This document shows, one piece after another, positions 7,547 to 46,066 of a stretch of DNA of 62,959 nt (positions within the stretch are counted from its first letter, which is position 1; each line of letters starts with the position of its first letter). A program made the translations under genes and the position numbers. Under the pieces are notes generated by a model, which worked only from the letters and a program-made list of their open reading frames with translations, was not told where the DNA came from and did not search any database. The stretch comes from Candidatus Saccharimonadota bacterium (lineage in GTDB: Bacteria; Patescibacteriota; Saccharimonadia; Saccharimonadales; JAGQNJ01), in assembly GCA_036826295.1 (NCBI GenBank), contig DAISWO010000002.1:159294-222252 (forward strand). Reading direction: 5' to 3'.

Positions 7547-7665
7547 ATAAATATTTCAGTGCAAGCATAACGATTATTAAATCTAAGACATACAATGCGA
7601 CTTTACAATGTATAGTTACTTTGATATTATGTTATTGCTTAACTAATTAGAAAGAGAGGCCGATA

Positions 7666-7893
7666 ATGATAACTGTATATTCAACACCAACTTGTGGTTT
7701 TTGCCACGCATTAAAATCATATTTAAAAGACAAGAAGATAGAATTCAAAGAAAAAGACCTAACCACAGATGAATCTGCCGCAAAATGGGTTTATGACCAT
7801 ACAGGGCAACTAGCCGTCCCAGTAACTGATATTGATGGCAAAATTATCGTTGGTTTTGATCGTCCTAGTATCGACGCCGCGCTAGCTGGCTAA
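7666..7893 (+). CDS. glutaredoxin / NrdH-like redoxin
   Basis: CGFC active site, GQLAVPV, IVGFD. Confidence 0.92.
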   Translation: MITVYSTPTCGFCHALKSYLKDKKIEFKEKDLTTDESAAKWVYDHTGQLAVPVTDIDGKIIVGFDRPSIDAALAG

Positions 7894-7934
7894 TGTGAGA
7901 AATATCACAGTAAATATTCACGCTTTTCTCTAAA

Positions 7935-8543: not shown

Positions 8544-8566
8544 AAACGCATGATATCCTAGGTAGC

Positions 8567-10023: not shown

Positions 10024-10089
10024 ATTGCGCAATATTATGCACCTTATTCTAGATAATGCAATTCCCGTCAACAATGATAGTATTTTACT

Positions 10090-10710: not shown

Positions 10711-11831
10711 ACAACCAGTCGTCTGGCTTCTTCTGCCAGCTCTATAGCATTTTGCCCAAACAACTCCGCTTGACCTAGCACTTCCTCGGCGTGTTGCTCT
10801 AAAATCCTTACTTCATCAGCTCTTTTACCGGCCACAGCCAACATATTTTTTTTGATTTCATCAATAAGGAACCGTTTTCGAACCGTCAACTGACGCGCAT
10901 CTTTTTCAAAAAGTGTGAAATTCTCTCCCACTTCTGTCCTATTATCTAGTTTTTTTCGTAAACCTTTGGCATGCGAGCGAATTCGACTCCGTGCCGCAGT
11001 TATATTTCTGTCGTCGGCATTGAATTGCGTGATAAACCGCCAAAGCTCTAGGACTACCAGCTGATCATAAGTCTCACTTGCTTCATCAGTCCAAATACCG
11101 TGAATCTCACTGACTTGGTTGGCCACGTCGCGTTTGATTGGCTCTAGTGCTCTAGATAGTTCGATAGCCAACGAGAAAGGCAACCCACCATCATCAGTGG
11201 CGGCTCTAATATCGTCTGGAAGCTCACAATACCTCAAAGCATCATTAAAACGCTCTCTGGGCAAGCCGAATCTTTTTGCAAAAGCTGTTTTTGTTAAATC
11301 TGGGTCGTATTCTTTTTCGTATAAAAACGCCTCAGCATATCCCCGTGCCGCACGATCTGGTGGCGGAGCAGAATGGGTGTTCTCGGCTGCCTGTATTGCT
11401 AGCATCTCGCCAATCGACGATACGGGGTGTATACGAGTAGGTAACGTAACATCCCAATGATCAGTGCCGTCCTCGTCAGCTATTATTTGGTAACTTAGAC
11501 GTCTAGAGTGCCCAGCTATAAGAGCAACGTAACAAAATGGGGCTTCTGGAATTGGCGTAAATTCATCAGGTGATTTATCTTCATGCCATGTTCTATTCGT
11601 AAAATCTAGGTATCCTTCGAGGTGGGATTGCTCTAGCAAAACTGCGTTAACCGGGTAAAGTAAGCCTAACGCCCGAATGCTCCTCGTTAAATCGTCTTGG
11701 CGTTCATTACGACCTACTCGTTGTTGAGCAAAAACATTAAGCGCTGCTAACGGAACTTCACGTGGACCCTCTTGAGATAAGGGGAAGGAATCCCTTATCT
11801 GTTCAAAACTATCATTATTCATCATCGCCAT
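10707..11831 (-). CDS. ParB/Srx N-terminal domain protein with central HTH
   Basis: SIRALGLLYPVN...LIAGHSRR...AAEN pattern, followed by an HTH-like segment (TKTAFAKRFG). Confidence 0.65.
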   Translation of the reverse strand: MAMMNNDSFEQIRDSFPLSQEGPREVPLAALNVFAQQRVGRNERQDDLTRSIRALGLLYPVNAVLLEQSHLEGYLDFTNRTWHEDKSPDEFTPIPEAPFCYVALIAGHSRRLSYQIIADEDGTDHWDVTLPTRIHPVSSIGEMLAIQAAENTHSAPPPDRAARGYAEAFLYEKEYDPDLTKTAFAKRFGLPRERFNDALRYCELPDDIRAATDDGGLPFSLAIELSRALEPIKRDVANQVSEIHGIWTDEASETYDQLVVLELWRFITQFNADDRNITAARSRIRSHAKGLRKKLDNRTEVGENFTLFEKDARQLTVRKRFLIDEIKKNMLAVAGKRADEVRILEQHAEEVLGQAELFGQNAIELAEEARRLVV

Positions 11832-11952
11832 AATGTTGTCGCCTATAATCGCTCCTTATAATATGTAGTCGTACTATAAATCATCATCAACAATTAAATC
11901 AACAGAGTTTTGCCGGAAAGAAAAAGTGATGTCATTTATACACTTATTAATT

Positions 11953-11990
11953 CTGGCACTCTTGACACGAGAGTGCCAGTTTCTTATAAT
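11953..11990 (+). promoter_or_regulatory. CIRCE (HrcA operator) overlapping a consensus sigma70 promoter of hsp20
   Basis: CTGGCACTC-N9-GAGTGCCAG perfect inverted repeat (11953-11979); TTGACA 11962-67, 17-nt spacer, TATAAT 11985-90. Confidence 0.9.
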
Positions 11991-12041
11991 TGAGTTGGTA
12001 GAGATACCACAATATCAATCTAAAAAATTGGGGGTAATATT

Positions 12042-12467
12042 ATGGCATTAATTCAATTTGACCCGTTTGATGATATGCGGGCATTACAAAAACAGTTTTT
12101 TGGTGACGACTATTGGTCGCCATCCACAACAACGGCTCAACTTCCTACTACAGACATCTATTCTGAAGACGACAAATCAATGATTGTCGAGGCTCATTTG
12201 CCACACTTCGAACAAAAAGATGTGGATGTTAGCGTCGACCGTGGCGTGCTAACAATTAGCGCCGAAAAACACGAAAAAGAAGAGGACAAAAAGAAAAAGT
12301 ACGTTATCCGCGAAAGCTCATCTAGCTTTTATCGCCGTGTAGCACTTCCAAAACACGCTGACGCTGATCACGTATCTGCACACTTCGACAAAGGCGTTCT
12401 AAAGGTCACGGTTCCATTCAAAGAGTTGCCAAAACCTAAAAAAGTCCAAATCAAAGCCAAAAATTAA
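12042..12467 (+). CDS. small heat-shock protein (Hsp20/alpha-crystallin)
   Basis: GVLTISAEK...RESSSSFYRRVALP...AHFDKGVLKVTVP. Confidence 0.95.
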   Translation: MALIQFDPFDDMRALQKQFFGDDYWSPSTTTAQLPTTDIYSEDDKSMIVEAHLPHFEQKDVDVSVDRGVLTISAEKHEKEEDKKKKYVIRESSSSFYRRVALPKHADADHVSAHFDKGVLKVTVPFKELPKPKKVQIKAKN

Positions 12468-12551
12468 CCAATTAGCTTTTGCTGGTCAAGTGGCGTAGCA
12501 TTATCACTAATATGATAGTGGTAATGCTAAATTGTTGTATTTTTATACAGG

Positions 12552-13139
12552 TTGGAATCAATAGTGACTAAACGGCAAAAGAAAAAACTAATTCAACTTA
12601 TCGTAGGTAGTTTGTTGCTCCTCGGATCATTTTTATACTCAAAGTACCAACCCGTTGCGCAAGCGCCGGTTACTCAGGCAGGTTACTATAATGTTTCTAG
12701 GTTTGATGATGGAGACACTATTGTTGTAGACATGAACGGCGTGGACGAAAAAATCCGTTTTATTGGCGTAGACACGCCAGAGACCCACGACCCGAGAAAA
12801 CCAGTGCAGTGTTTTGGAAAAGCAGCATCCGAGTTTACAAAAAACTTAATTGGAAACAATCCTGTACGCCTAGAATCAGACCCAACTAACACCAATCGAG
12901 ACAGGTACAACAGGCTACTTCGCTATGTGTACTTACCGGACGGAACACTTGTTAACCTCGAGATAATCAAACAAGGATACGGGTTTGCATATCTTAGCTT
13001 TCCAGTCCAAAAAGCCGAAGAGTTTAGATTGGCGCAAAAAACTGCTCGAGAGAACGAAAAAGGCCTTTGGTCAGCTTGTGATCCAGAAAAAAATGAATAT
13101 GGTGGATTCTCGTCACCGCCCGAGAAAACTAATCTATAA
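12552..13139 (+). CDS. thermonuclease (SNase-like), N-terminally anchored
   Basis: DDGDTI, IRFIGVDTPE, DRYNRLLRYV, LVNLEIIKQG. Confidence 0.92.
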   Translation: MESIVTKRQKKKLIQLIVGSLLLLGSFLYSKYQPVAQAPVTQAGYYNVSRFDDGDTIVVDMNGVDEKIRFIGVDTPETHDPRKPVQCFGKAASEFTKNLIGNNPVRLESDPTNTNRDRYNRLLRYVYLPDGTLVNLEIIKQGYGFAYLSFPVQKAEEFRLAQKTARENEKGLWSACDPEKNEYGGFSSPPEKTNL

Positions 13140-13146
13140 TGTCATC

Positions 13147-13416
13147 ATGAGCATAAATCCTGAGAAAAACTTAAAAGTCCGAGCAATCTTATATGTTATC
13201 GGGGTCGGCGGATTAATCCATTTAACTAGCCTGCTTATTCTAGCCATTTCTAAACAAGATCTAAATTATTTTAACCCTCTATATACTGTCGACATTGATC
13301 AACTATGGAAAGGTATAAATGATAACTACTTGATCTACGCAGGTGGCTGGATTGCTTTTGCTTTAGCAATTTTCTTCGTATATAAGATACTAGATAATGC
13401 GCATAATAAGGATTAG
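13147..13416 (+). CDS. small membrane protein
   Basis: Two TM segments; ATG at 13147 lies 6 nt after TATAAT. Confidence 0.65.
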   Translation: MSINPEKNLKVRAILYVIGVGGLIHLTSLLILAISKQDLNYFNPLYTVDIDQLWKGINDNYLIYAGGWIAFALAIFFVYKILDNAHNKD

Positions 13417-14090
13417 TGTACTAGCTTAGTTTTTAACCACATTTTCGGATAATGTGACCAATTTTTAAATCTCCGATTACAAACCGAGGCCGTAAAGTTT
13501 TTGTTGAATTTTACCGGCACACCTACGAGATTAAGATGAACAGCCAAATCCATATCTTCGTGTATATCGTTTCTTAGGCAAACCGAATTTTTCACTTTTT
13601 GCCACGCACGTCTCGTTACAAACATGTTTGACCCAAATAAGGTCTGATGCCCAAAGAGTATTCTGCTACTCCAAAAATATACAACCCTATGAGACCAAAA
13701 CGTCAAAAAATGCGGGATCTTTCCGCGAAAACTACACGGCCCAGTAACGGCAACCATATCAGGTAATTCTTGCATCTGTTCCAGTATATCTTTTACCCAG
13801 TTGTGCGGAACGATCGTATCGGCATCGATCCGCGCAATAACATCACTGCTACAAGCATTAAACCCAGCATTTCTAGCGTAAACAATACCCTGATTTCTTT
13901 CCTGGATAATTTTTACATCCGCAAAACTTTTGACTATTTTCATGGAATTATCCGAACAATTATTATCTACAACTATTACCTGATTCAGATTAACAGATTG
14001 ACGCATAATAGATTCTAAGCATTTCCCAATGTGGTCTTGGTCGTTATATACTGGAATAACAATCGATAACGTTAATGCTTTACTACTCAT
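13413..14090 (-). CDS. glycosyltransferase family 2
   Basis: SIVIPVYN, VVDNNCSD, IARIDAD, HEDMDL. Confidence 0.92.
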   Translation of the reverse strand: MSSKALTLSIVIPVYNDQDHIGKCLESIMRQSVNLNQVIVVDNNCSDNSMKIVKSFADVKIIQERNQGIVYARNAGFNACSSDVIARIDADTIVPHNWVKDILEQMQELPDMVAVTGPCSFRGKIPHFLTFWSHRVVYFWSSRILFGHQTLFGSNMFVTRRAWQKVKNSVCLRNDIHEDMDLAVHLNLVGVPVKFNKNFTASVCNRRFKNWSHYPKMWLKTKLVH

Positions 14091-14110
14091 ACTGATTCGA
14101 TACTAACAAA

Positions 14111-15346
14111 ATGGCTAGAACTAACAAGAAGAAAACTAAATCCAAGAGAAAACAACGCCTTCATACGCGTGTAGTTAATCGCACCAAAGCAACAGCAAAA
14201 ATAGGCGTCAAACACCTAAAACCCCACGCAGTAAGGACAAAACACTGGTACCAACGGAGAGGTTTTTGGCAAAAAGTCGGCATCTGGATTTCTATATTAG
14301 CGATCACTCTATTATCAACAATGTATGGGATTGCGAGGTGGTACATACAAAAACACAAGAACGAACCGCTTACTATTGGTGCGACTTTTATTCCAAATTA
14401 CGCTCGGTACTATAATCTCAGCCCAGAGAACACCATGGACGCCATGATCAACGACCTAGGGATCAGACGCTTTAGATTAGTTAGCTATTGGAGCGATATT
14501 GAGAAAAAACCAGGTAAATATGATTTTAAAGAGCTGGATTGGCAGTTCGACAAGATTGAAAAGGCCGGTGGGACCATCTCGCTAGCAATTGGATTACGAC
14601 AGCCTCGTTGGCCAGAGTGTCATTGGCCAGAATGGGCTCAGAAGATGCCCAAAGCACAGTGGCAAGGTAAGTTAAAAGACGTTATGGGTAAAGTGATTGA
14701 TAGATACAAAGATCGCGGAGTATTGCAAGATTATCAGCTAGAAAACGAATACTTTCTAGAGGTTTTTGGTGACTGTCCGGACCATACCAGAGAAAGATTA
14801 GTTGACGAATTTAATTTCGTTAAAATTAAAGACCCTAGCAGACCAGTTATAGTAACGCGCAGTAACAACGCAGTGCCTAGCTGGCCGGTTGGTGAGCCAA
14901 GAGCGGATATTAATGGCGCTTCAATCTACAAACGCGTATGGGACAGAACTGTCACGAAACGATACTTTGAATATCCTCTTCCACCTTGGTTTTACGCATT
15001 CTTAGCAGGTGGAGCAGAATTAACTACTGGGACAAATACTTTCATCCACGAAATGCAGACCGAAGCCTGGCCCCCAGTGGCAATGAAAGACACAAGTATC
15101 GAAGAACAAGACAAATCAATGCCACCCGAAAAATTACGAGATCGAATAAAATACGGCATCGATACAGGAATGAGGACTATCGACCTCTGGGGTGTCGAAT
15201 GGTGGTATTGGCGAAAAGTAGAGCTCAATGACCCGAGACTATGGGACGAGGGCAAAAAAGCTATCGAAGAATTCACCACAAGCGACAAACAATGTCCAGA
15301 GTATTATCGAAATGTCCCCAACGGTCGATCAAAAAGCCCTTGCTAA
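14111..15346 (+). CDS. membrane-anchored glycoside hydrolase (clan GH-A-like TIM barrel)
   Basis: N-terminal TM; RLVSYWSDIEKKPGKYDF; YQLENE acid/base motif; HEMQTEAW nucleophile region. Confidence 0.75.
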   Translation: MARTNKKKTKSKRKQRLHTRVVNRTKATAKIGVKHLKPHAVRTKHWYQRRGFWQKVGIWISILAITLLSTMYGIARWYIQKHKNEPLTIGATFIPNYARYYNLSPENTMDAMINDLGIRRFRLVSYWSDIEKKPGKYDFKELDWQFDKIEKAGGTISLAIGLRQPRWPECHWPEWAQKMPKAQWQGKLKDVMGKVIDRYKDRGVLQDYQLENEYFLEVFGDCPDHTRERLVDEFNFVKIKDPSRPVIVTRSNNAVPSWPVGEPRADINGASIYKRVWDRTVTKRYFEYPLPPWFYAFLAGGAELTTGTNTFIHEMQTEAWPPVAMKDTSIEEQDKSMPPEKLRDRIKYGIDTGMRTIDLWGVEWWYWRKVELNDPRLWDEGKKAIEEFTTSDKQCPEYYRNVPNGRSKSPC

Positions 15347-15391
15347 AAATACTCATCTATTACATCAAATTAACAGGTGTTATAATTGAGC

Positions 15392-15551
15392 CATGCACTT
15401 GTGCTTAAAATCTAGTTTCTTCATTTCGGCGCGCAGCGAGGCGTAGAAAACTACGTTGAAGTGAGCGACGGAAGGAAAAAGTAGATTTGAAGCCAAGAAC
15501 ATCATTAATATTTCGTAGCTTGACTGCGTAATTTTGATGATGTGGTGCATG
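15392..15551 (+). ncRNA. candidate structured 5' leader RNA of smpB
   Basis: Follows extended -10 TGtTATAAT (15378-86); closing stem CATGCAC/GTGCATG plus two long internal helices. Confidence 0.45.
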
Positions 15552-15561
15552 AGGTCAAAAA

Positions 15562-16014
15562 ATGAAAAAGAAGCATAAAGCCACTGGTAAAATTGTAAAC
15601 CGCCGCGCCAAGTTTGATTATCAACTTGGCGACAGCTTTGTCGTGGGCATTGTTTTAAATGGTCGCGAAGCTAAGTCGCTGCGCCAGGGTCATGCTCATT
15701 TACGCGGCGCTTATGTGACAGTCAAGGGTGATGAGCTGTGGCTGACCAACGCCACAATCGCCAGTGGTAAAACTTTCGTTATTCCTGAGGATGAGCAAAC
15801 CCGACCTCGAAAGTTGCTGGCTCACCGCAAAGAAATCGACACCATGATCGCGGCTCGCCAACAGGGTAATACTCTGGTGCCAACTGAATTTCATACTGGC
15901 TCAAAGCACATCAAGCTGCGGGTATCGGTGGGCAAGGGCAAAAAGAAGTACGACAAGCGCCAAACTATCAAAGAGCGCGATCAGAAGCGCGAGAACGCTC
16001 GGCTAGTCCGGTAA
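15562..16014 (+). CDS. smpB: SsrA-binding protein
   Basis: NRRAKFDY, GIVLNGREAKS, RPRKLLAHRKEI, GKGKKKYDKR. Confidence 0.97.
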   Translation: MKKKHKATGKIVNRRAKFDYQLGDSFVVGIVLNGREAKSLRQGHAHLRGAYVTVKGDELWLTNATIASGKTFVIPEDEQTRPRKLLAHRKEIDTMIAARQQGNTLVPTEFHTGSKHIKLRVSVGKGKKKYDKRQTIKERDQKRENARLVR

Positions 16015-16376: not shown

Positions 16377-16451
16377 TCCCGGGTAGCTCAATGGTGGAGC
16401 AAGAAGCTGTTAACTTCGAGGTTGCCGGTTCGAGTCCGGCCCCGGGAGCCA
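16377..16451 (+). tRNA. tRNA-Asn(GTT)
   Basis: TCCCGGG/CCCGGGA acceptor stem, D-loop TAGCTCAATGGT, anticodon loop CT-GTT-AA, GGTTCGAGTCC T-arm, encoded CCA. Confidence 0.96.
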
Positions 16452-16748
16452 ATTTTGTGAAAGAGTGCTTTCAACGAGTACCGAGAAAGGTTTCAACAGA
16501 TTGAGTTGAAGCCTTTTTTCGTTGATTTGGCAGTTCGCAAGTAGAGCCTTCAAGATTTTGTTCTTTTGGGCAGGTTGCGAACTTTGGAAGATACTGCGGG
16601 CGTTTTGGGCTAGTTCTAACAGATGTGTAGCGGTCAAAATGAAACTTTTGTCATTGTTAGTGTATTCAACGAGCCTATACTCTAATTCTTCCTTTTCTGC
16701 TTTATATTTAGTTACGTATTTGTCATAGTCAGGCGTAGTAATACGCAA
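16410..16748 (-). pseudogene. C-terminal remnant of a large serine recombinase, reading antisense into tRNA-Asn
   Basis: Helical C-terminal region ending WLPGPDSNRQPRS; in-frame TAA directly upstream, so no catalytic domain. Confidence 0.75.
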
Positions 16749-16765
16749 TTATAACCGACGAACTA

Positions 16766-17035
16766 TTGGGTAAAATAAAGCCGTCCGCAATAGTCGTTGA
16801 TATTATTGAATTGAAGAACAAAGACAAGGTTATTGAAATGGTCAAAGATGGCAAACTATTTGGCTATGGCTTTGAAGCAGAGCCTAAAACCTTCGCAGAA
16901 TACGAAGGTAATATCTGGTCAGCACCTGCCTATGCGTGGGTAACTGACGGTTCAATGAACAACTCTATGACTAAATTGGTTGAAAATATGGTCAACGCCG
17001 TTAGTGGCAATTTCCCAAATAGGGTCAACCTGTAA
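16766..17035 (+). pseudogene. probable 5'-truncated gene fragment
   Basis: TTG start with no SD; open frame begins at 16742, back-to-back with the recombinase remnant. Confidence 0.4.
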
Positions 17036-17043
17036 ACCAACAC

Positions 17044-17277
17044 TTATAAACCAGTAAAAAAGTCCGCAACGCTAACATCTAACTGCTTTGCCAATACGAA
17101 CAAGGTAGAAAGTTTTGGGCTTCTGCGACCCTGTTCAATATAGCCAATAGAAACTCTGTCCAAGTCTGACAGATACGCAAGTTTTTCTTGCGAGTAACCT
17201 TTGGCTTCACGAAGTTCTTGTATCCTGCGACCAAGTTTTATAGTGAAGGCGTCAAATGCTTTATTAGTGTATGCCAT
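17044..17277 (-). CDS. XRE-family HTH regulator (controller C-protein-like)
   Basis: LGRRIQELREAKGYSQEKLA...IGYIEQGRRSP. Confidence 0.9.
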   Translation of the reverse strand: MAYTNKAFDAFTIKLGRRIQELREAKGYSQEKLAYLSDLDRVSIGYIEQGRRSPKLSTLFVLAKQLDVSVADFFTGL

Positions 17278-17314
17278 CGTACTCTATTTTCGTTGTCAAA
17301 AGTGCCAAACACTA

Positions 17315-17389
17315 CTAACAGAGAGTTAGCAAAACTACTTATAATTTGTTATATTTGATAACAGATGGTTTGCTAACAATGTGTTAGCA
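17315..17389. promoter_or_regulatory. repeated palindromic operators between XRE gene and mod
   Basis: CTAAC-N5-GTTAG at 17315-29 and 17373-87; degenerate ATAAC-N5-GTTTG at 17358-72 directly adjacent to the second. Confidence 0.65.
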
Positions 17390-17410
17390 CATATAAGGAA
17401 GTAACAACAA

Positions 17411-19114
17411 ATGGCACAAAAAGGCAGATATACTGAATTACCGAACAAAATTGGCTTGTATAGCACTAGCAAAGGCAGTTTTATAAAGAACGACAATGAC
17501 GTTGTTTTGAGCTTTCCGTTCAAGGACGCCGTATTAGAAGCGGGTATGAGCAAGGAAGATGTGGGGCGTGATGAACGCTTTTTACATCAGGAACTAGACA
17601 GCAAGGACATTGACACACTTGAAGAACCAAAGGTGCTTACTGACTTTCGCTATGTAGGTAAGGACGGCGAAAGACCGCTAACTGCGAGTAGCGATGTTGA
17701 GTTCTTTGACGAAGACGGTAGCCTACAACAAAACCTGCTTATCAAGGGCAACAACTTGCTGGCACTATACACTTTGCGTGAGAAGTTAGCAGGTAAGGTA
17801 AAGTTCATCTACATTGACCCGCCTTACAACACACGCACAGACGCCAATACTTTTGCCTACAACAATAATTTCAATCATAGTTCGTGGCTTACCTTTATGC
17901 GTAACAGGCTGGAAGTTGCCAAAGAGTTGCTTACCGAAGACGGTGTGATTTTCATAGACATTGACCATTACGAATTGTTTTATCTTGGCGTCTTGGCTGA
18001 TGAGATTTTTGGCTATGAAAATAGGCTTGGCGTACTTGCTGTTGTCCATAACCTAAAGGGCAGATACAACGAGTTCTTTTCGCCTGCACACGAAAACAAA
18101 ATTGTATATGCCAAAAATGCCCAATACGCTAAAATCAAAGACTTCAATTTTGACAATTCAAGTAGTTACCCGCACGAAGATGAAATAAGCCGATACAAGA
18201 GCATACCATTACAGCGTAGTGGCGATGGCTCACGGCGAGCAGACCGACCAAACCTCTTTTACCCTGTTTATTACAACCTTGATACAAAAGAGGTGTCTAT
18301 AACGAAACCTGAAAACGGTGTTGAAATGCTACCGATTGACAGCAACGGTATTGAGCGAAGATGGCGTTGGGGTAGAGATACGCTGATGGAAAAATGGAAA
18401 ACCGAAACAGAAGTAAGACAAGTCAATGGCGAATACAAGATATACACCAAACTTCGCATAAAAGGCGAGCGACCAAAATCACTTTGGTTCAGACCCGAAT
18501 ACTCTGGCACAACTGGAACTGGCGACTTGAAAGATTTGATGGGCGACAAAGTTTTTAGTTACCCGAAGTCAGTAGCTATGGTCAAAGACAGCATACAAAT
18601 CAGCACAGAGCCTAACGACATTGTGCTGGACTTCTTTGGCGGTTCAGGCACTACCGCACAGGCTGTTATGGCTCAAAATGCCGAAGATGGCGGTAACCGC
18701 AAGTTTATCTTGGTTGAGCAAATGAACTATGTGAACAATGTTACTTTCAAGCGTTTAGAAAACGCCATCAAGAAGTATTACAGCGACACATCGTTTGTTT
18801 ACTTTGAGTTGAAGAAATACAACCAAGAGTACCTTGACGCCATTATGGAAGCCACAAGTATAAAGGAACTGGAAGAATTGTATGTTGATATGCGTAACAA
18901 TGCTTTCTTGAAGTTTTGGTTTGACCGTGCCGAGTTTGAAAAAGACGAAAACTTCCGAAGCAAAGATTTAGAAGGTCGCAAACAAGCACTTGCTGACATA
19001 CTAGACGAGAACCAACTTTACCTAAACTACGCCGATATGAACGATACACGTCATACAGTGTCGTCAGACGAGAAGGCACTAACGGACAAGTTCTATGGCG
19101 AAGACGAAAACTAA
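17411..19114 (+). CDS. type III R-M methyltransferase (Mod)
   Basis: NLLIKGNNL, IYIDPPY, DFFGGSGTT. Confidence 0.9.
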   Translation: MAQKGRYTELPNKIGLYSTSKGSFIKNDNDVVLSFPFKDAVLEAGMSKEDVGRDERFLHQELDSKDIDTLEEPKVLTDFRYVGKDGERPLTASSDVEFFDEDGSLQQNLLIKGNNLLALYTLREKLAGKVKFIYIDPPYNTRTDANTFAYNNNFNHSSWLTFMRNRLEVAKELLTEDGVIFIDIDHYELFYLGVLADEIFGYENRLGVLAVVHNLKGRYNEFFSPAHENKIVYAKNAQYAKIKDFNFDNSSSYPHEDEISRYKSIPLQRSGDGSRRADRPNLFYPVYYNLDTKEVSITKPENGVEMLPIDSNGIERRWRWGRDTLMEKWKTETEVRQVNGEYKIYTKLRIKGERPKSLWFRPEYSGTTGTGDLKDLMGDKVFSYPKSVAMVKDSIQISTEPNDIVLDFFGGSGTTAQAVMAQNAEDGGNRKFILVEQMNYVNNVTFKRLENAIKKYYSDTSFVYFELKKYNQEYLDAIMEATSIKELEELYVDMRNNAFLKFWFDRAEFEKDENFRSKDLEGRKQALADILDENQLYLNYADMNDTRHTVSSDEKALTDKFYGEDEN

Positions 19115-21923
19115 AATAAATGCCACGCTCAATGACTTTCTGTTCAACCAAATAGAAAACGACCCTGCCTACATAGCGTGGCAAGCCGACTTTACTATTC
19201 CCGAATACGTTACCGACAATTTGAGTAAGACCCTGCGTGAATACCAAGTGATAGCCTTGAAGCACTTTATTTGGCTATATGAAACCGATAGAGCCAGAGC
19301 CAAGCACTTATTGTTCAATATGGCGACAGGTACAGGTAAAACGCTTGTAATGGCGTCTGTGGTGCTTTACCTGTATGCACAAGGCTATCGTAATTTCTTG
19401 TTTCTGGTTCATCAAATACAAATCAAAGACCAAGCACTAAAGAACTTTACCGATTATAAGTTTGAGAAGTACCTGTTCAATCCAAAAGGCGTAAGAATAA
19501 ACGGACGTAATGTAGCGGTCAAAGAAACAAAGAGCATAGCAGACGCAGACCGCAACGCTATAAACTTTATGTTTTTCAGCACCTCACTACTGTATAACCG
19601 ACTGCTTGAAGATAAAGAAAACGGACTTACAGCCCAAGATTTTGCCGACAATGATGTAGTGGTAATTGCCGATGAAGCCCATAGGCTCAACGTAGATACC
19701 AGAAGCAAAAAGAAAGCCGATATTGAAGAAGTACGAAACTGGGAAACTGCCGTTATGTCAGCAGTCAAAGCTCGTGAAGGAAACCTGCTACTTGAATATA
19801 CGGCAACTGTTGATTTAGCCAACCAAGCAATTCACGAAAAATACAAAGAAAAGTTAGTCCATCGCTACGACTTTTTAGAGTTCAACCGTGATGGGTATAG
19901 CAAGGACGTAAAGTTCTTATACAACAAAGAGGTTCATACCGAAGACCAAAAGCGTCTACTTATCATAAACGCCGTTGCTTTGAGCGAATATCGTAGGCTA
20001 CTTGCCGAGCGAGAGATGAAGGTAGATATGAAACCGATTGTACTTATAAAGTCAGTCAAAATTGCACAAAGCGAAGAAGACCGTGCGTTCTTTGACGCTG
20101 TTATTTCTAGCCTACGACCAGACGACTTGAACCGCTTGAAGGAACTTGCCAAGCAAAACATCAACCACGAACACGAAATACTGAACGATATGTTTGTGTG
20201 GCTAAAAGAGGCAAAAAACGGCTTTGTAACACAGGGCGACTGGGAAGGCTTGAATAAGTTTGTCAGCGAAATACGAGCCAGTTTTGCCCACGATAATACG
20301 CTCATATACAACAGCCAAAAGAAGGAAAAAGCCGAACTGTTGCCTTTGCTAGATAGCCCACGCAATACAATTCGTGCCATATTCAGTGTAAATGCCTTGA
20401 ACGAAGGTTGGGACGTATTGAGCCTATACGACATTATTCACTTTGATATTAGTGAAAGTAAAAAAGTTAGCCTTCAAGATATTCAGTTGATTGGTCGTGG
20501 TGCTAGGTATTTCCCTTATGAACTGCCACGCTCATACAAGCCAGATGATGACAGCAATAAACTATCACTTGATTTTGCCCAACGCAATTTGGAGTTTGAT
20601 ATAGACCGCCGAAAGTTTGATAATGCACCTTTTGAGCGTGGTCGTGTGCTGGAAACTTTTGTTTATCACTTCGTAAAGACTGGTATGTTCCTAGAAAACT
20701 TACAGCGTGATTTGCTTGGCGAAGGCATTATCAACGAAGGTGTTGAGCAAAAGACCATTACGCTAAAGACAAAGTTCCTTGAAAGTGAAACCTACAAAAA
20801 AGGCTTTGTATTGGTCAACCATACCATCAAGCGAACCAAGACAACCGAAGACGAGATTGACACTACTTTCAACCGCACTATCAAGGCAGGCTTGTATAAT
20901 CTACGAGCAAGAGGCTTATCTGACTATGAGCAAAATCAACAAATTGCGAGCCAGAAAACAAAAGTTATTCGTATTACCGATGAGTTTTTTGCCGAGCCTA
21001 TTATTCGCAAAGCATTGGTATCAGCCGAAGCCAACTTTTTCCGATACAACAATCTAGTTCATCACATACCCGACTTGAAGACGGTTGATGAACTGATAGA
21101 AAAGTACCTGCCGAAATACGAAATTACCTATACCTACGAAGACGGCAAAGATATTGGTCTACTGAACGCCCAAGAAAAACTACAACTACTTGTCGGTGCG
21201 ATACTGCCAGAAGTTCGCAGGCGTATAGACATTTATATGCCGAGAGAGGCAGGAAGTAACCAGTTTAGACCAGTATCGCTTTCCCAAGTGTTCGGCAAAG
21301 AAAAGAACATTTACTTGATGTCGTTCCCAAGTATTGACCTTACGACTGGCGAGAAAGTGTTCATAAGCACAGACGAGCGAGCCAAAGCTCAAAGCGACCA
21401 CGACAATCCTGATTTACAGTTCAATGTAAAAGGTGCTGATTGGTATGCGTATAGTGAAAACTATGGCACAAGCGAAGAAAAGAAGTTTGTAAAATACCTT
21501 GCAAGCCAGATTGACGACTTACACGCAAAATACAGTGGTTCGGAAGTATATCTAATTCGTAATGAACTAGACTACTGGCTATACAGTCTAAAAGATGGTC
21601 GTAGGTTCAGCCCAGACTATATGCTTATCATCAACGATGTAGTAAATCAGCAGTTGTATTACCAAGTCATTATTGAACCGAAGGGTGGACATATCATTGA
21701 ACAAGACGCTTGGAAGGAAGAAGCCTTGATAAGCCTGAACGATGACAGTGAAGTTGTGTTTGATACAAATGAAAACGACAAGCAGGCTTACAAAGAATAC
21801 TTGGCTGAAATGAGCAAGCACGGCTATAAAGAGATAAAGCCAATTGGCATAAAGTTCTATAACACTGACCCACGCCCCGAAAGCGAGTTTGCCCTAGATT
21901 TTGAGGCTAAATTGCTCGCCTAA
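19095..21923 (+). CDS. type III R-M restriction subunit (Res; SF2 helicase + nuclease)
   Basis: MATGTGKT, DEAH, EGWD, QLIGRGAR, C-terminal FSPDY...EPKG. Confidence 0.9.
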   Translation: MAKTKTKINATLNDFLFNQIENDPAYIAWQADFTIPEYVTDNLSKTLREYQVIALKHFIWLYETDRARAKHLLFNMATGTGKTLVMASVVLYLYAQGYRNFLFLVHQIQIKDQALKNFTDYKFEKYLFNPKGVRINGRNVAVKETKSIADADRNAINFMFFSTSLLYNRLLEDKENGLTAQDFADNDVVVIADEAHRLNVDTRSKKKADIEEVRNWETAVMSAVKAREGNLLLEYTATVDLANQAIHEKYKEKLVHRYDFLEFNRDGYSKDVKFLYNKEVHTEDQKRLLIINAVALSEYRRLLAEREMKVDMKPIVLIKSVKIAQSEEDRAFFDAVISSLRPDDLNRLKELAKQNINHEHEILNDMFVWLKEAKNGFVTQGDWEGLNKFVSEIRASFAHDNTLIYNSQKKEKAELLPLLDSPRNTIRAIFSVNALNEGWDVLSLYDIIHFDISESKKVSLQDIQLIGRGARYFPYELPRSYKPDDDSNKLSLDFAQRNLEFDIDRRKFDNAPFERGRVLETFVYHFVKTGMFLENLQRDLLGEGIINEGVEQKTITLKTKFLESETYKKGFVLVNHTIKRTKTTEDEIDTTFNRTIKAGLYNLRARGLSDYEQNQQIASQKTKVIRITDEFFAEPIIRKALVSAEANFFRYNNLVHHIPDLKTVDELIEKYLPKYEITYTYEDGKDIGLLNAQEKLQLLVGAILPEVRRRIDIYMPREAGSNQFRPVSLSQVFGKEKNIYLMSFPSIDLTTGEKVFISTDERAKAQSDHDNPDLQFNVKGADWYAYSENYGTSEEKKFVKYLASQIDDLHAKYSGSEVYLIRNELDYWLYSLKDGRRFSPDYMLIINDVVNQQLYYQVIIEPKGGHIIEQDAWKEEALISLNDDSEVVFDTNENDKQAYKEYLAEMSKHGYKEIKPIGIKFYNTDPRPESEFALDFEAKLLA

Positions 21924-21999
21924 AAAACGCTTGGCAAAATGACCCCCAAAAATTCGGCATTTCATATAGCGGAGTGTCAAACGGCGGAACAAAGGGCGA

Positions 22000-22911
22000 C
22001 TACCCCCCTATGTTACCTCTGTTGGTGGCGTAAGCGTAGTCTTTAGACCAACGCACAAGCAGTAAGTTACTCTGAATTATCATTTCATCGTTTGTTATAG
22101 CGTGTCGTTTCTGCTTTTTACCAGATTTTAGTGGGTCTATAAGTTCAATAAGTATTTCAGGGGTCAAAGCGAAGTAGTGTCGTCTTTGAGCTATATGGTT
22201 GCTGTACATTTTTTCAACCATTGTTTTTCCAGTATTGTTGAATACCTCAACTACTGGTGTATCAGTAGTGATGAACTTCTTTGAGCCTTTAGACAGATAG
22301 AACCGCCATTTCTTTATTACAAACCACCTATGAAACTCTTCGCAATTAGTGATGAGCTGTAAGTGATTGACGTTGTTATCAAAAGTCAGTTCGTATTCGC
22401 CACTTACAAATGTTTTTCTAGCGTCTTCAATTTGTTCATCGGTAACTTGATGTCCCTCTTCTTTCATAGCCTCTTTAGCACCGTCAGAAAAGTTCGGGTG
22501 TGAAGCCATTAGTGTAGTGATTTGTTTCATACCATCAGCCATAGTCTTGTTTATCTGTCTTCGCATATGTGGACTTCTAATCCAAAGTGAAGCCATAAAC
22601 CACGCTAAAATATCTAACTGCTGGTCTGTTAGTGGTTGGTAGTTCAATATTGCGTCAACGATGGCGTCATACTCTTTGGCAAACTTATCTTCAATTTCGC
22701 CAAAATACTGTTCAAATACTTGGCTTGTTTCATCTTCTTTACCAGTTTCAATAGCGTAGTAAAAGTCGGCATAACAAACACCACTATAAGGTCGGGCTTT
22801 TATGAGTTTGCCTTTTTGAATATCTAAAGTCTGCAACATATTATCAACAGCAAACCTTTTGAAATAAAAGCGTGGTGCGAAGTGCTGTTTCTTTGTTATC
22901 TGCTTTGTCAT
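22000..22911 (-). CDS. DUF4238-like protein
   Basis: N-terminal QHFAPRFYFKRF; FITTDTPV; YFALTPEILI. Confidence 0.7.
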   Translation of the reverse strand: MTKQITKKQHFAPRFYFKRFAVDNMLQTLDIQKGKLIKARPYSGVCYADFYYAIETGKEDETSQVFEQYFGEIEDKFAKEYDAIVDAILNYQPLTDQQLDILAWFMASLWIRSPHMRRQINKTMADGMKQITTLMASHPNFSDGAKEAMKEEGHQVTDEQIEDARKTFVSGEYELTFDNNVNHLQLITNCEEFHRWFVIKKWRFYLSKGSKKFITTDTPVVEVFNNTGKTMVEKMYSNHIAQRRHYFALTPEILIELIDPLKSGKKQKRHAITNDEMIIQSNLLLVRWSKDYAYATNRGNIGG

Positions 22912-23275
22912 ATTTCTATTTTACAGCCGTATGGGTATGTGCTGAAACATATGGTCTTTGCCAACAATTATTCCCAACAACGCTACCACTGTTAGCACGT
23001 TGGAGTTGTTGGGCTATTTCGGAAAACAAACGATTTTTTTATAGCGACACATTTTTAGGTAGTATGTGCGTTTACGAGTTTTCTAAAATATCAAGGGTCA
23101 AGGCATAGGGGGGGCTATGCCACGCTAAGTAGTAGTCCCTTGATGTTACGAACTTCGCTTTTGTCGTAGTCCATACTAGCCGTTCGCAGTTCGTTTGCCA
23201 GTGCGAGCCAAGCATAAGCGGAATGGATAACAGAGGCGAGAGGCCTCTTTTTCTTGTTTGAGGTATACTTAAAAC

Positions 23276-23974
23276 ATGAAATCCGTAAATATCTCGTGTA
23301 TTGGTTATGAAATAGCTGCTGATTGGTACGAAGGGAGTGATTGTGTATTGCTAGTTCTACCTGGCTTTACATCAAGCAAGGCAAACTACAAAGACCTGAC
23401 TGCGGCAATCATCAGTAAAACTGGAACTTCAGCACTTGTCATCGACTATTCTGGCCACGGCGAAAGCCCGTTCGATGTTCAAGACATCACCATCATGGAG
23501 AACTTCTCTGAAGTTGTAAGAGCCTATGACTGGCTCAAGAAGCATTATCCAGATAAAGCAATTAACGTTATGGGAACAAGTTACGGCGGCTTTTTTGCAG
23601 CTATGCTTGCTGGTGTGCGTGACGTAAATAAACTAGTCTTAAGAGTACCGGCGAACTACGCCCCAAAAGACCTGTATACGCCGTGGCGAGAGCTTGACAG
23701 GGAACAAATCAGAAATGAATACAGGGCCGACCCAAACAACTTCAAAGAACATCCCGTGCTTGCACATGGACAAAGTTTTAAGGGTACAGCCTACGTTTTA
23801 ACACACGAGTTGGATGAGGCCTGCCCAAAGAGCAGCACCGACCCGTATATTAAGGTGTTTGGTGCAGAAGCATGGGAAGCCAAAGGATTTGTGCATGGGC
23901 TAGCTAAAAGTAAGTTTACTCAGGCTCAGCTTGAAGAGTATCAAGATAAGATTGCTGGGTGGCTAAACAAATGA
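23276..23974 (+). CDS. alpha/beta-fold hydrolase
   Basis: LPGFTS, DYSGHGES, GTSYGG nucleophile elbow, Asp and His (FVHG). Confidence 0.85.
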   Translation: MKSVNISCIGYEIAADWYEGSDCVLLVLPGFTSSKANYKDLTAAIISKTGTSALVIDYSGHGESPFDVQDITIMENFSEVVRAYDWLKKHYPDKAINVMGTSYGGFFAAMLAGVRDVNKLVLRVPANYAPKDLYTPWRELDREQIRNEYRADPNNFKEHPVLAHGQSFKGTAYVLTHELDEACPKSSTDPYIKVFGAEAWEAKGFVHGLAKSKFTQAQLEEYQDKIAGWLNK

Positions 23975-24633
23975 AATTTGTCCTATGCTCCGAAGGGTTT
24001 AGTACACCAAACACCGTAGAAGCATGTACCAAGCTTGTAGGCAAGCCAAAAGGAGAAATAAGTATTGGCATCATTAACGAAGCCTTCGCCGTGGAGCATG
24101 GTGATAAACGGTGGGTACTCCATAACTTACAATGCGTCTTTGATAACTTCAGTGGTGAAGTGGACATCGTTAATCTATTGGCTTTATCTATTGAGGAAGT
24201 GGAAGCCAGATTAGTTAACAAGGATGTCATCTTTGTGGTCGGTGGGGATACCGACTATCTGATGGGCGTTTACGAAAAGACTGGCTTCGACAAACTACTG
24301 CCAAAGCTACTAGAAACCAAGGTCTATGTCGGTAGCAGCGCTGGCTCAATGGTGGTCGGCAGGCGCATATCAGCTGCTGCATATAGACTTATCTACGGTG
24401 AGGATAGCAAGTGGGGTATCGATGCCTACCTTGGGCTTGCCGACCTATCTGTCATGCCTCATCTTGACTCACCTGATTTTCCGAACCGTAAAGATACTCT
24501 GCTTGAAGCCGTAGGGGAGTTTGAAGTTAAAGTCTATGGCCTGCGTGATGGCAGCGCCGTGGTTATAGATGGCAACAGCGTCACCACCATTGGAAGTGAG
24601 CCACTTATTATTGAGAAAGGTAAAGTGATATGA
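23971..24633 (+). CDS. peptidase S51 (PepE-like, class I glutamine amidotransferase fold)
   Basis: VGGDT, GSSAG nucleophile, MPH; ATGA overlap with the hydrolase stop. Confidence 0.85.
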   Translation: MKFVLCSEGFSTPNTVEACTKLVGKPKGEISIGIINEAFAVEHGDKRWVLHNLQCVFDNFSGEVDIVNLLALSIEEVEARLVNKDVIFVVGGDTDYLMGVYEKTGFDKLLPKLLETKVYVGSSAGSMVVGRRISAAAYRLIYGEDSKWGIDAYLGLADLSVMPHLDSPDFPNRKDTLLEAVGEFEVKVYGLRDGSAVVIDGNSVTTIGSEPLIIEKGKVI

Positions 24634-25154
24634 GCAAACTTGCTATTGCAATCACCGGACCATCTGGAGCGGGTAAAAGCACCGTTACCGACAAAATCAT
24701 CCGACAACGTGAAAAATGTGCTCGTATTGATACAGATGACATAAAGCAGTTCCTGTTCAGCGCTTTCCGCAAAGACAGCCAGCAAGATGGTTCAACTCTC
24801 TGGACATTTGAAGATTGGGATACATTAGGTAATAGCACTGGCATTCTGGCTAAAGGCTTCCTGGACGCTGGCTATGACGTAATAATCGATGGGCATATCG
24901 ATGATACCGCCTGGAAACTTATAGAGAAGCATGTAACTCTTACACATAAGTTCCTATTGCTGCCGCATGTTGACGTCACAAAGGCTAGGGATAAAGAGCG
25001 TTCTGGCGATACTGTCATGGGCGATGAAGCAGTTACCAATTCTCATAACTACTTTGTGACTAATTACTACTATAAAGACTTCGTTACGCTAGATACCACC
25101 GACCACAGTATTGATGAGACCGTTAAGACAATTCAGGAACAGCTAGACAGCTAA
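24630..25154 (+). CDS. small P-loop kinase (nucleotide-kinase-like)
   Basis: GPSGAGKST, IDTDD, VIIDG, lid Arg (ARDKER). Confidence 0.75.
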   Translation: MSKLAIAITGPSGAGKSTVTDKIIRQREKCARIDTDDIKQFLFSAFRKDSQQDGSTLWTFEDWDTLGNSTGILAKGFLDAGYDVIIDGHIDDTAWKLIEKHVTLTHKFLLLPHVDVTKARDKERSGDTVMGDEAVTNSHNYFVTNYYYKDFVTLDTTDHSIDETVKTIQEQLDS

Positions 25155-25246
25155 GCTTATAGATTGTGCCGACTCAGCAATATCTCGAGCTAACCTCATA
25201 ATCTGAGAGTAATACTTGGTACGAAGTACGTCAGCTAGTGGGAGCC

Positions 25247-25277
25247 ATCCTTCATAGCTATGAAGGATTTTTTCTTT
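25247..25277 (+). terminator. intrinsic terminator after attR (displaced tRNA-Asn terminator)
   Basis: Palindrome ATCCTTCATAGCTATGAAGGAT followed by a T tract. Confidence 0.8.
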
Positions 25278-25470
25278 GAGGGGTATGGCTCGAACCTTGG
25301 TCGTAAATAGCCTGATGGCTGTTTACGTTTTACTTACTAGTCTGTATGCGCGTTGGCTACGCCAACTAGTCGCTAACAGAAAATGAACAGTCCGACCCCA
25401 GAAAATTCAATATATTAATGAAGTTTGTTAATTAATTGTCTTAGAGCATGATTATCGAATCAAATTACTA

Positions 25471-46043: not shown

Positions 46044-46066
46044 AGAATAAAGTTCTTTTTTGACCC

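What the first reader, a model, noticed from the sequence alone, without database searches (positions are those of the whole stretch)
16410..25247. Integration swaps the recombinase C-terminus at the tRNA-Asn att site
Seen: the recombinase frame crosses the 8-bp core (TGG CTC CC). When integrated it ends WLPGPDSNRQPRS*, antisense to the tRNA, with the stop over the anticodon loop. At the right-hand core copy (25247 to 25143, minus strand) the same frame is open for 34 codons: WLPLADVLRTKYYSQIMRLARDIAESAQSISLAV*. The excised circle would therefore encode a different, longer tail. The in-frame open tail and the terminator after 25247 support an otherwise weak 8-bp att. Inference: tail exchange could set directionality or protein stability without a separate RDF, analogous to attP-within-repressor switches in some actinophages.
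Basis: partly seen in the sequence, partly recalled or inferred. Interest (0 to 1): 0.65.

Follow-up and report, generated by a model that had tools for sequence, protein, structure and literature searches.

The report
Dead serine-integrase island at tRNA-Asn

Summary
The sequence observation holds. A frame antisense to tRNA-Asn ends WLPGPDSNRQPRS*, and the same frame stays open for 34 codons at the right-hand GGGAGCCA. However, the "recombinase" is only a 105-codon C-terminal remnant with no catalytic domain. The island (16452-25247) is two decayed elements in tandem, joined by a second attP-like joint at 23203-23210.

Intact relatives are ~8.7-9.9-kb circular elements from Saccharibacteria metagenomes. 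They carry a rolling-circle Rep, a large serine recombinase (LSR) and either an FtsK-like or a type III R-M cargo. In those circles the recombinase ends in a longer tail homologous to both window tails. That tail is under purifying selection (pN/pS 0.26-0.40, against 0.8 or more in the control frames). Most integrated copies end in tRNA antisense instead. The tail swap is therefore real for the family, but fossil in this window. A role in directionality or stability is untested, and intact relatives carry an excisionase-type HTH gene.

New here: ten independent remnants are cut exactly 5' of ATTAC, inside a DNA word conserved beyond what the protein requires. This may be a Rep nick site (origin) inside the recombinase gene.

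Published precedents found: Mx8 IntP and SSV (attP inside int), both cited among tyrosine-family integrases. I found no published tRNA-targeting serine integrase.

The parts
16377..16451 (+). tRNA-Asn(GTT). Its 3' end GAGCCA (TGGCTC on the recombinase strand) is the attachment core.
   Evidence: ARAGORN; sequence
16444..16451 (+). Left core copy GGGAGCCA (attL crossover region).
16410..16748 (-). Remnant A: the last ~105 codons of a large serine recombinase (second coiled-coil helix to C-terminus) plus 13 tRNA-antisense codons. It is 96% identical to residues 406-514 of the intact 521-aa protein P0021.
16483..16519 (+). Intrinsic terminator for tRNA-Asn, embedded antisense in the recombinase codons EKRLQLNLLKPF. 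It replaces the native terminator displaced by integration.
   Evidence: the equivalent hairpin is readable in G015; single-codon columns K482 and P491
16737..16757 (-). Truncation joint TATAATTGCGT|ATTACTACG. Homology to intact genes begins at CGTATTAC, the recurrent breakpoint word at the coiled-coil tip.
16766..17035 (+). ORF89 plus a remnant of the divergent promoter region of the rep-rec operon (TAGTTCGTCG..TATAAT, also present in L014, L036 and L033).
17044..17277 (-). XRE-type HTH, divergent from mod (controller-like).
   Evidence: Pfam HTH_3 6e-13
17411..21923 (+). Type III restriction-modification cargo: mod 17411-19114 and res 19095-21923. About 74% nt identity to mod/res of the circular element L036.
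22000..22911 (-). DUF4238 gene, cargo of element A.
23115..23210 (-). Tail-1, WLALANELRTASMDYDKSEVRNIKGLLLSVA*. This is the orphaned attP-form tail of element A, 60% identical to the L036 tail.
23203..23210 (+). Internal core GCGAGCCA, the joint between elements A and B (attP-like: remnant B, core, tail-1).
23211..23275 (-). Remnant B: about 20 last codons of a second recombinase gene (..KKKRPLASVIHSAYA|WL), with its antisense terminator at 23232-23252 on the + strand.
23276..25154 (+). Cargo of element B: alpha/beta hydrolase, S51 peptidase and a P-loop kinase.
25143..25247 (-). Tail-2, WLPLADVLRTKYYSQIMRLARDIAESAQSISLAV*.
25240..25247 (+). Right core copy GGGAGCCA (attR).
25247..25393 (+). 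Native downstream region of tRNA-Asn: terminator 25247-25268, a second hairpin 25302-25327, and a ~140-nt repeat (25253-25393) found behind other tRNA genes of this genome.

Best explanation
Window 16452-25247 holds two tandem, decayed copies of a family of small integrative elements of Saccharibacteria (Patescibacteria).

The free elements are 8.7-9.9-kb circles. They carry the operon SpoVG-like - gpII-type rolling-circle Rep - large serine recombinase, an excisionase-type HTH, and cargo (an FtsK-like translocase, or a type III R-M system).

Their attP lies inside the last codons of the recombinase gene, at TGGCTC, the complement of the tRNA's ..GAGCCA end. In the circle the gene continues for about 30-40 more codons, a tail conserved at protein level, and its stop overlaps the start of a small acidic ORF. 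Integration at the 3' end of tRNA-Asn joins the gene to tRNA antisense instead. That gives 11 junk codons and a stop from the anticodon loop, and it strands the tail plus the acidic ORF at the far end of the element. A terminator written antisense in the recombinase codons replaces the tRNA's displaced terminator.

In this window both elements have lost rep and nearly all of rec. Element A keeps 105 codons and element B about 20. Nothing can switch here, and the two open tails are fossils.

Shown: the anatomy, the homology, the circular forms, and purifying selection on the tail. Inferred: that the long-tailed protein integrates and the short-tailed one, if active, excises.
For: - The remnant has no catalytic part.
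- Full-length relatives carry Pfam Resolvase + Recombinase + Zn_ribbon_recom, and most end NWL + tRNA antisense. G044 ends WLPGPDSNRQPRS* inside tRNA-Asn. G015 reads into tRNA-Asn across a 55-nt contig overlap.
- L033 has a 30-nt terminal overlap. L034 and L035, from other runs, align across its ends at 99.99-100% identity. L036 has a 253-nt terminal overlap.
- Long tails in the circles are homologous to both window tails.
- pN/pS of the tails is 0.40 and 0.26 in the recombinase frame, against 0.81-4.1 in the other two frames. Variable columns by codon position are 14/7/29 in the second group.
- The same attP-like tandem joints occur in G044 and G002, and multi-joint arrays occur in G003 and at tRNA-Asn in L063.
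- Rep matches Pfam Phage_CRI above the curated cutoff. The Rep proteins of L033 and L036 are 45% identical to that of G015.
- Right flank: the tRNA-downstream repeat.
Against: - No empty site with the same two flanks was found. G001 has an unoccupied tRNA-Asn but a rearranged downstream region, the G002 contig ends inside the tRNA, and an exact-match metagenome scan gave 0 hits.
- The 8-bp repeat alone is not above chance.
- Circularity rests on assembly overlaps, not on reads.
- The pN/pS values come from short sequences and non-independent pairs.
Confidence: 0.85

Rival explanations
1. Functional switch. The conserved tail, made only from the circle, is needed for or biases attP x attB integration, or it carries a stability signal. 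The tRNA-tailed protein made from the integrated copy has a different activity, specificity or half-life. The integration state would then help set directionality.
For: - The tail is under purifying selection and falls into conserved families across recombinases only 52-85% identical to the query.
- The design recurs in several hundred homologues.
- Integration also uncouples a small acidic ORF that overlaps the recombinase stop.
Against: - No functional data exist.
- The AlphaFold2 tail has pLDDT below 50, with no docking.
- Tail families differ from one another, and recombinases at tandem joints carry a neighbour's tail (G002, G054). This argues against a tightly co-adapted tail.
- An excisionase-type HTH gene is present in the circular relatives.
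- This locus cannot show the effect, because its gene is dead.
Confidence: 0.25
2. Neutral by-product. attP lies in the gene's 3' end only because the element is compact. The tail is the ordinary C-terminus needed for a fully active integrase. The integrated, tail-less form is simply weaker or inactive, and excision depends on other factors or is rare.
For: - Purifying selection on the tail only shows that the circle form is used.
- Many integrated copies decay into remnants and cassette-like stacks, which fits poor excision.
- The circles carry their own Rep and could persist as plasmids.
Against: Contig breaks exactly at the core (G015, with a 55-nt overlap; G043, G051 and G046 near contig ends) hint at mixed integrated and excised populations.
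Confidence: 0.45
3. Remnant A is not a random deletion scar. It would be a cis-acting module: a rolling-circle origin that starts at a Rep nick 5' of ATTAC, followed by the tRNA terminator and the attP P arm. Premature or secondary termination of rolling-circle replication would create rep-less, rec-less derivatives that a helper element can still replicate and integrate.
For: - Ten independent DNA joints all lie exactly 5' of ATTAC, and 7 of 10 have GG just upstream.
- Of 69 fragment-sized database proteins, 28 begin homology at residues 401-407, with unrelated N-terminal extensions, and 13 more start at the first internal Met.
- Three different joints occur within one >=95%-identical subfamily.
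- The R406 and I407 codons are CGT ATT in 9 of 9 intact genes. Only 12 of 127 invariant residues use a single codon.
- TCTGTT lies at exactly +121 nt in 11 of 11 intact genes.
- A gpII-like Rep is present in 11 of 11 elements with the word, and in 0 of 5 LSR loci without it.
- The polarity fits: the putative nick is on the rep-sense strand and the retained DNA is 3' of it.
- The fragment in L063 is 98.7% identical to the window's, but is joined to window-21943-like DNA. The R-M module therefore lies exactly between two such joints.
Against: - There is no conserved hairpin around the site.
- No second copy of the word lies upstream of the operon.
- The association with Rep is confounded by shared ancestry.
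- None of the four fragment-bearing contigs I could test for terminal overlap (L057-L060) was circular.
- The nick specificity of this Rep family is unknown to me.
Confidence: 0.4
4. The repeat at 25240 is a chance match, and the island ends elsewhere or is not an integration product.
For: GGGAGCCA twice in 63 kb is within chance: 24 of 100 shuffles gave two or more copies.
Against: - The tail and P' arm are homologous to the attP of circular relatives.
- A terminator and the tRNA-downstream repeat follow directly after the core.
- The same architecture occurs at the internal joint and in other genomes.
Confidence: 0.03

Closest known systems
Myxophage Mx8 integrase IntP (attP inside the int coding sequence)
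   Same: attP lies within the integrase gene, so integration creates a recombinant gene with a new 3' end. A review states that the altered protein stays active with modified specificity (PMC6070905). The Islander paper cites Mx8 and SSV as integrases that extend across attP (PMC4383910).
   Different: The Islander paper cites Mx8 IntP among tyrosine-family integrases, whereas this family is large serine recombinases. Here only about 30-40 codons are exchanged and the new end is tRNA antisense. The elements are small rolling-circle plasmid-like circles, not a tailed phage. From memory, not checked: Mx8 targets tRNA-Asp and exchanges about 110 residues.
Large serine integrases of phages and integrative elements (phiC31, Bxb1, A118/LI, SPbeta SprA, TP901-1)
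   Same: Intact relatives share the domain set Resolvase + Recombinase + zinc ribbon with a coiled-coil insert. They also share a short overlap between attP and attB.
   Different: - The target is the 3' end of a tRNA gene. The Islander paper (2015) says serine integrases are not known to target tDNA, and I found no later description.
- attP lies inside the integrase gene.
- Elements stack into tandem arrays through attP-like joints. Canonical serine integrases are not expected to make these, because pairings other than attP x attB do not recombine (abstract of PMC3783163).
Actinomycete integrative and conjugative elements (AICEs such as pSAM2).
   Same: A small element that combines a rolling-circle Rep, a site-specific integrase, an excisionase-type HTH and an FtsK-like DNA translocase, and that integrates at a tRNA gene (gene content of L033).
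   Different: - The host is Saccharibacteria.
- The integrase is a serine recombinase whose gene spans attP.
- The window copy has lost rep, rec and any translocase.
Integration-dependent immunity of cluster G and related mycobacteriophages (attP inside the repressor gene).
   Same: Integration changes the C-terminus of a phage protein because attP lies inside its gene.
   Different: There the gene is the repressor, and the switch removes a degradation tag. Here the gene is the recombinase itself, and no tag has been shown.

Membership tests
Large serine recombinase (serine integrase) | N-terminal resolvase catalytic domain with the serine nucleophile | tested here: not met
   The window ORF 16410-16748 has no Pfam hit. 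Homology starts at residue ~402 of ~510, and no N-terminal part lies nearby. Relatives P0001-P0120 carry PF00239.
Large serine recombinase (serine integrase) | Recombinase domain plus zinc ribbon with a coiled-coil insert | tested here: not met
   The window keeps only the second coiled-coil helix and what follows it. In the AlphaFold2 model of relative P0048 the coiled-coil helices are 355-402 and 408-435, and the break is at the tip. Relatives carry PF07508 and PF13408.
Large serine recombinase integrative element | Short core shared by attL and attR, flanking the element | tested here: met
   GGGAGCCA lies at 16444 and 25240, and an internal GCGAGCCA at 23203. The core shared across the family is TGGCTC.
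Mx8-type integrase spanning its own attP | attP lies inside the integrase coding sequence, so integration gives the gene a new 3' end | tested here: met
   The circular forms L033 and L036 read through the core into a 28-aa tail. Integrated copies read into tRNA antisense.
Mx8-type integrase spanning its own attP | Tyrosine recombinase chemistry | tested here: not met
   The family carries serine-recombinase domains.
Integration-dependent switch by tail exchange (directionality or stability) | The two tail forms differ in activity, specificity or half-life | not testable with these tools
   Only indirect evidence: the tail is under purifying selection, and its AlphaFold2 confidence is low.
AICE-like rolling-circle integrative element | Rolling-circle Rep, integrase and FtsK-like translocase on one small circle | tested here: not met
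   The window has none of the three intact. The circular relative L033 has all three, with Rep assigned through homology to the Phage_CRI hits.
Rolling-circle origin (Rep nick site) inside the rec gene | A precise, recurrent DNA end at one phosphodiester bond, with a conserved flanking word | tested here: met
   Ten joints lie at |ATTAC. The CGT ATT codons are invariant, and TCTGTT lies at +121.
Rolling-circle origin (Rep nick site) inside the rec gene | Rep cleaves and joins at that site; origins of many rolling-circle replicons include a hairpin | tested here: inconclusive
   Five subfamilies show no conserved hairpin. Cleavage itself cannot be tested here.

The most novel reading that the evidence does not exclude
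Two things would hold together.

First, the recombinase gene of these Saccharibacteria elements would be a two-state gene. The circle makes a long-tailed integrase, translationally coupled to a small acidic protein. The integrated copy makes a tRNA-tailed enzyme without that partner. This state-dependent product, not only a classical RDF, would bias integration against excision.

Second, the last 315 bp of the same gene would double as a rolling-circle origin (a nick 5' of ATTAC), a tRNA terminator and half of attP. Rep-made, rep-less derivatives such as the one in this window would then be helper-dependent satellites that stack at tRNA-Asn.
Probability: 0.2. Interest if true: 0.8.

Novelty: new variant of a known kind. 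Interest (0 to 1): 0.6.

Why it matters
- Serine integrases are valued as simple one-way DNA tools, and their direction is thought to be set by a separate directionality factor. A family in which integration rewrites the enzyme's own C-terminus would be a self-contained state sensor, testable with two plasmids in laboratory E. coli.
- tRNA genes would also be added to the known targets of serine integrases. A 2015 island-mapping paper says they are not known targets (PMC4383910).
- The same elements seem to pack an origin, a terminator and half an att site into coding sequence, and to shed helper-dependent cargo cassettes. That may explain how ultra-small Patescibacteria genomes build defence and accessory islands at tRNA genes.
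- For this particular window the result is sobering. The copy is dead, and its R-M cargo is fixed in place.

Tried and rejected
- Empty site by exact pattern in metagenome contigs: 0 hits.
- Empty site in the same genus: G001 has tRNA-Asn followed directly by a terminator with no element, but its downstream genes are rearranged. The G002 contig ends inside the tRNA. Neither is a clean empty site.
- A second, inverted spare attP, reported by earlier scan notes for other elements: not found in L033 or L036.
- A hairpin around the ATTAC breakpoint: none is conserved.
- A second copy of the breakpoint word upstream of the operon: only a loose resemblance, GACGTAATG.
- Circular, rep-less derivative elements: none of the four fragment contigs tested for terminal overlap (L057-L060) has one. 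L061 and L062 lack rec and rep hits, but their circularity could not be checked. L061 is only partly held, because of the 10-kb flank limit.
- The remnant as an expressed mini-protein: many joints sit just after purine-rich RBS-like runs or a few codons after a start codon. However, there is no conserved start, the window copy has no ATG, and the piece is not a complete fold. This is kept only as a minor possibility.
- LSR pseudo-att site at the breakpoint: I saw no resemblance to attP by eye.
- AlphaFold2 for the tail's role: uninformative, at pLDDT below 50.

Full report
**What is at the coordinates**

tRNA-Asn(GTT) lies at 16377-16451. On the opposite strand a stop-to-stop frame runs 16748..16410. 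It ends ...SQNWLPGPDSNRQPRS*, and its TAA lies over the anticodon loop. GGGAGCCA occurs exactly twice in the window, at 16444 and 25240. That count alone is within chance: the expectation is 0.89, and 24 of 100 shuffles gave two or more copies. A terminator hairpin follows at 25247-25268.

**The 'recombinase' is a remnant**

The frame has 112 codons and no Pfam hit. Searching the window with two full-length relatives finds homology only from residue ~402 of ~510. The only other hit is an unrelated serine recombinase at 46180-47478. The genome has 825 kb. Database sources name close homologues of the fragment as Saccharibacteria or Saccharimonadales.

Full-length relatives (506-545 aa) are common: 236 of 401 genomes of the order have a match. 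They carry Pfam Resolvase + Recombinase + Zn_ribbon_recom. An intact 521-aa protein, P0021, is 96% identical to the window remnant over residues 406-514. The truncation is therefore recent.

**The tail swap is real in the family**

Of the 120 best homologues, most end NWL + tRNA antisense (RRLDSNQRPRS, PGPDSNRQPRS and similar). In G044 the intact gene ends WLPGPDSNRQPRS* inside tRNA-Asn. In G015 it reads into tRNA-Asn across a 55-nt contig overlap.

A minority carry non-tRNA tails, and these fall into conserved families:
- TTIEEVITxIKxD..
- xxADTLRTxxxDYDExKVNxIKELLVxV
- PIQVTExL..

The second family is homologous to the window's predicted tail.

These long-tailed genes sit on circular elements. 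L033 (8,699 nt) has a 30-nt terminal overlap, giving an 8,669-bp circle. L034 and L035, from two other runs, align across its ends at 99.99-100% identity. L036 has a 253-nt terminal overlap with one mismatch, giving about 9.85 kb.

L033 carries a SpoVG-like gene, Rep, the recombinase (532 aa), a 61-aa acidic ORF overlapping the recombinase stop, an FtsK/SpoIIIE-like gene and an HTH_17 gene. L036 carries the same backbone plus a type III res/mod pair about 74% identical in DNA to the window's. The Rep proteins of G015 and G044 match Pfam Phage_CRI above the curated cutoff. The Rep proteins of L033 and L036 are 45% identical to that of G015.

**The tail is translated**

I collected nine distinct tails of the ADTLRT family with their DNA: two from this window, two from the circles, and five from the right ends of integrated elements. 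In the recombinase frame pN/pS is 0.40 (five sequences) and 0.26 (three sequences). In the two other frames it is 0.81-4.1. In the second group the variable columns by codon position are 14/7/29. Two tail copies in G044 differ mostly by synonymous changes. The numbers are small and the pairs are not independent, but the direction is clear: the tail is coding sequence used in the circular state.

**The right boundary**

Three lines support it:
- The P' arm next to 25240 is homologous to the attP of the circles.
- The terminator follows at once.
- 25253-25393 is a ~140-nt repeat that also follows other tRNA genes of this genome: near full length after tRNA-Gln (two genes), tRNA-Pro and tRNA-Leu, and as short 28-44-nt matches after tRNA-Tyr and tRNA-Arg.

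The native downstream region of tRNA-Asn was therefore pushed 8.8 kb away.

**The island is composite**

A translated comparison with L036 found a second tail at 23210..23115, WLALANELRTASMDYDKSEVRNIKGLLLSVA* (60% identical). It starts at a core GCGAGCCA (23203-23210). Before it lie about 20 codons of another recombinase 3' end, with an embedded antisense terminator at 23232-23252.
- Element A (16452-23210) holds remnant A, ORF89, an XRE HTH, mod, res, DUF4238 and tail-1.
- Element B (23211-25247) holds remnant B, a hydrolase, an S51 peptidase, a kinase and tail-2.

The same attP-like joints (recombinase end - core - a neighbour's tail) occur in G044 and G002. Multi-joint arrays occur in G003 and at tRNA-Asn in L063. 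Comparison of cores (TGGCTCCC, TGGCTCGC, TGGCTCAC, TGGCTCCG) puts the shared overlap at TGGCTC.

**How it most likely works**

Shown:
- attP is inside the gene.
- The circle encodes a long-tailed protein.
- Integration replaces the tail with 11 tRNA-antisense codons plus a stop from the anticodon loop.
- The tail and the acidic ORF end up at the far end of the element.
- A terminator written antisense in codons EKRLQLNLLKPF (16483-16519) follows the tRNA. The equivalent hairpin is readable in G015, and codons K482 and P491 are single-codon columns.

Inferred: the long form integrates, and the short form is what remains available for excision.

Whether the swap sets direction or stability is open. 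AlphaFold2 models the tail as helices at pLDDT below 50, with no docking. Recombinases at tandem joints carry foreign tails. L033 has an HTH_17 (excisionase-type) gene beside the operon promoter, and homologous sequence is present at the same position in L036 and in the decayed G032 island. 'No separate RDF' is therefore not supported. In this window none of it can operate.

**An unexpected regularity**

The C-terminal remnants are not random scars. Ten independent DNA joints lose homology to their nearest intact gene exactly 5' of ATTAC, inside the word GG(N)CGT|ATTAC(T/A) (codons G-R-I-T). They are the window, L014, L017, L020, L023, L026, L057, L061, L062 and L063. Their upstream sequences are unrelated, and 7 of 10 end in GG.
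- Of 69 fragment-sized database homologues, 28 begin homology at residues 401-407, each with a different N-terminal extension. Another 13 start at the first internal Met.
- Within one >=95%-identical subfamily there are three different joints.
- The site is the tip of the coiled coil.
- Its codons are constrained at DNA level. R406 is CGT (30% of Arg codons overall) and I407 is ATT (47% of Ile codons overall) in 9 of 9 intact genes. Only 12 of 127 invariant residues use a single codon.
- TCTGTT lies at exactly +121 nt in 11 of 11 intact genes from five subfamilies.
- All 11 elements with the word carry the gpII-like Rep just upstream of rec. Five LSR loci without the word have none.
- In L063 a fragment 98.7% identical to the window's is joined to DNA that in the window lies at 21943. 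The window's R-M module therefore sits exactly between two such joints.

My preferred reading, at about 0.4, is that the Rep nick site (the origin) lies here. Rolling-circle replication that starts at ATTAC and ends at a purine-rich pseudo-site would yield rep-less, rec-less derivatives. These keep the origin, the terminator and attP, and could be replicated and integrated by a helper.

Against this reading:
- No hairpin is conserved.
- No circular derivative was found.
- The association with Rep is confounded by descent.

**Comparison with what is known**

The closest published design I found is Mx8. Its attP lies inside int, and integration gives a new 3' end that leaves the enzyme active with modified specificity (PMC6070905). 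The Islander paper names Mx8 and SSV as integrases that extend across attP. It also states that serine integrases are not known to target tRNA genes (PMC4383910). My literature searches found no description of tRNA-targeting serine integrases or of these Saccharibacteria elements.

Earlier notes of this scan describe the same design in many Patescibacteria windows. They are leads, not evidence, but they agree with what I measured.

**Verdict**

- Novelty: a new variant of a known kind.
- This copy is an immobilised R-M/hydrolase island.
- The ATTAC breakpoint is the most interesting new lead.

Noticed in passing
window 16737-16757; also L014, L017, L020, L023, L026, L057, L061, L062, L063: Recombinase remnants in ten independent contexts are all cut exactly 5' of ATTAC, within GG(N)CGT|ATTAC at the coiled-coil tip. 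Usually GG lies just upstream. The codons there are fixed at DNA level.
   Followed up: yes
window 16483-16519 (+); equivalent position in G015 (L016 ~15885-15925): An intrinsic terminator for the tRNA is written antisense in the recombinase codons EKRLQLNLLKPF. The element thus brings a replacement terminator inside coding sequence. Remnant B keeps the equivalent hairpin at 23232-23252.
   Followed up: partly
window 25253-25393; G000 C2:139183-139319, C6:38352-38485, C5:28101-28213, C3:3150-3288: A ~140-nt repeat (two hairpins) directly follows several tRNA genes of this genome: Gln (two genes), Pro and Leu, with shorter matches behind Tyr and Arg. Partial matches occur in related genomes. 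Its function is unknown.
   Followed up: partly
all 11 intact rec genes examined, and window ~16620-16625 (-): The hexamer TCTGTT (codons ..T CTG TTA, Leu-Leu) lies exactly 121 nt after the GTATTAC word in every subfamily. A second copy at +244 in some genes lies in the terminator loop. It may be a protein-binding repeat.
   Followed up: partly
L033 3036-3221, L036 4415-4624, and after the tails in L013 and L014: A small, very acidic ORF (about 45-69 aa, rich in PDLDL/PELE repeats) overlaps the stop codon of the tail frame, which in the circles L033 and L036 is the recombinase stop. Integration separates it from the operon. The window lacks it.
   Followed up: partly
window ~21990-22012 (minus strand); L063 9948-9975; L023; joints of L017 and L026: A conserved word (A)TAGGGGGG-TAGTC-GCCC/CCCCC recurs in these islands. 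In two cases the ATTAC joint falls right after its G run.
   Followed up: partly
window 45952-47478: A second serine recombinase (432 aa, 46180-47478, minus strand) lies next to tRNA-Ser(GGA). Just past its stop codons there is an inverted tRNA-3'-end-like piece (TGGGCAGTAGGATTCGAAC, ~46145-46165). It may be another att arrangement.
   Followed up: no
G015 C5 end / C8 start (L016, L025); G002 C1 end (L056): Assemblies break at the att site: a 55-nt overlap ending at the core in G015, and a contig that ends inside tRNA-Asn in G002. This would fit mixed integrated and excised populations, or repeated tRNA ends.
   Followed up: partly
L063 (JGI 3300042202, 309-kb contig) 6500-15965: A long cassette array sits at tRNA-Asn, with an intact but different serine recombinase next to the tRNA and at least six core+tail joints. 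One of them carries a fragment 98.7% identical to the window's.
   Followed up: partly
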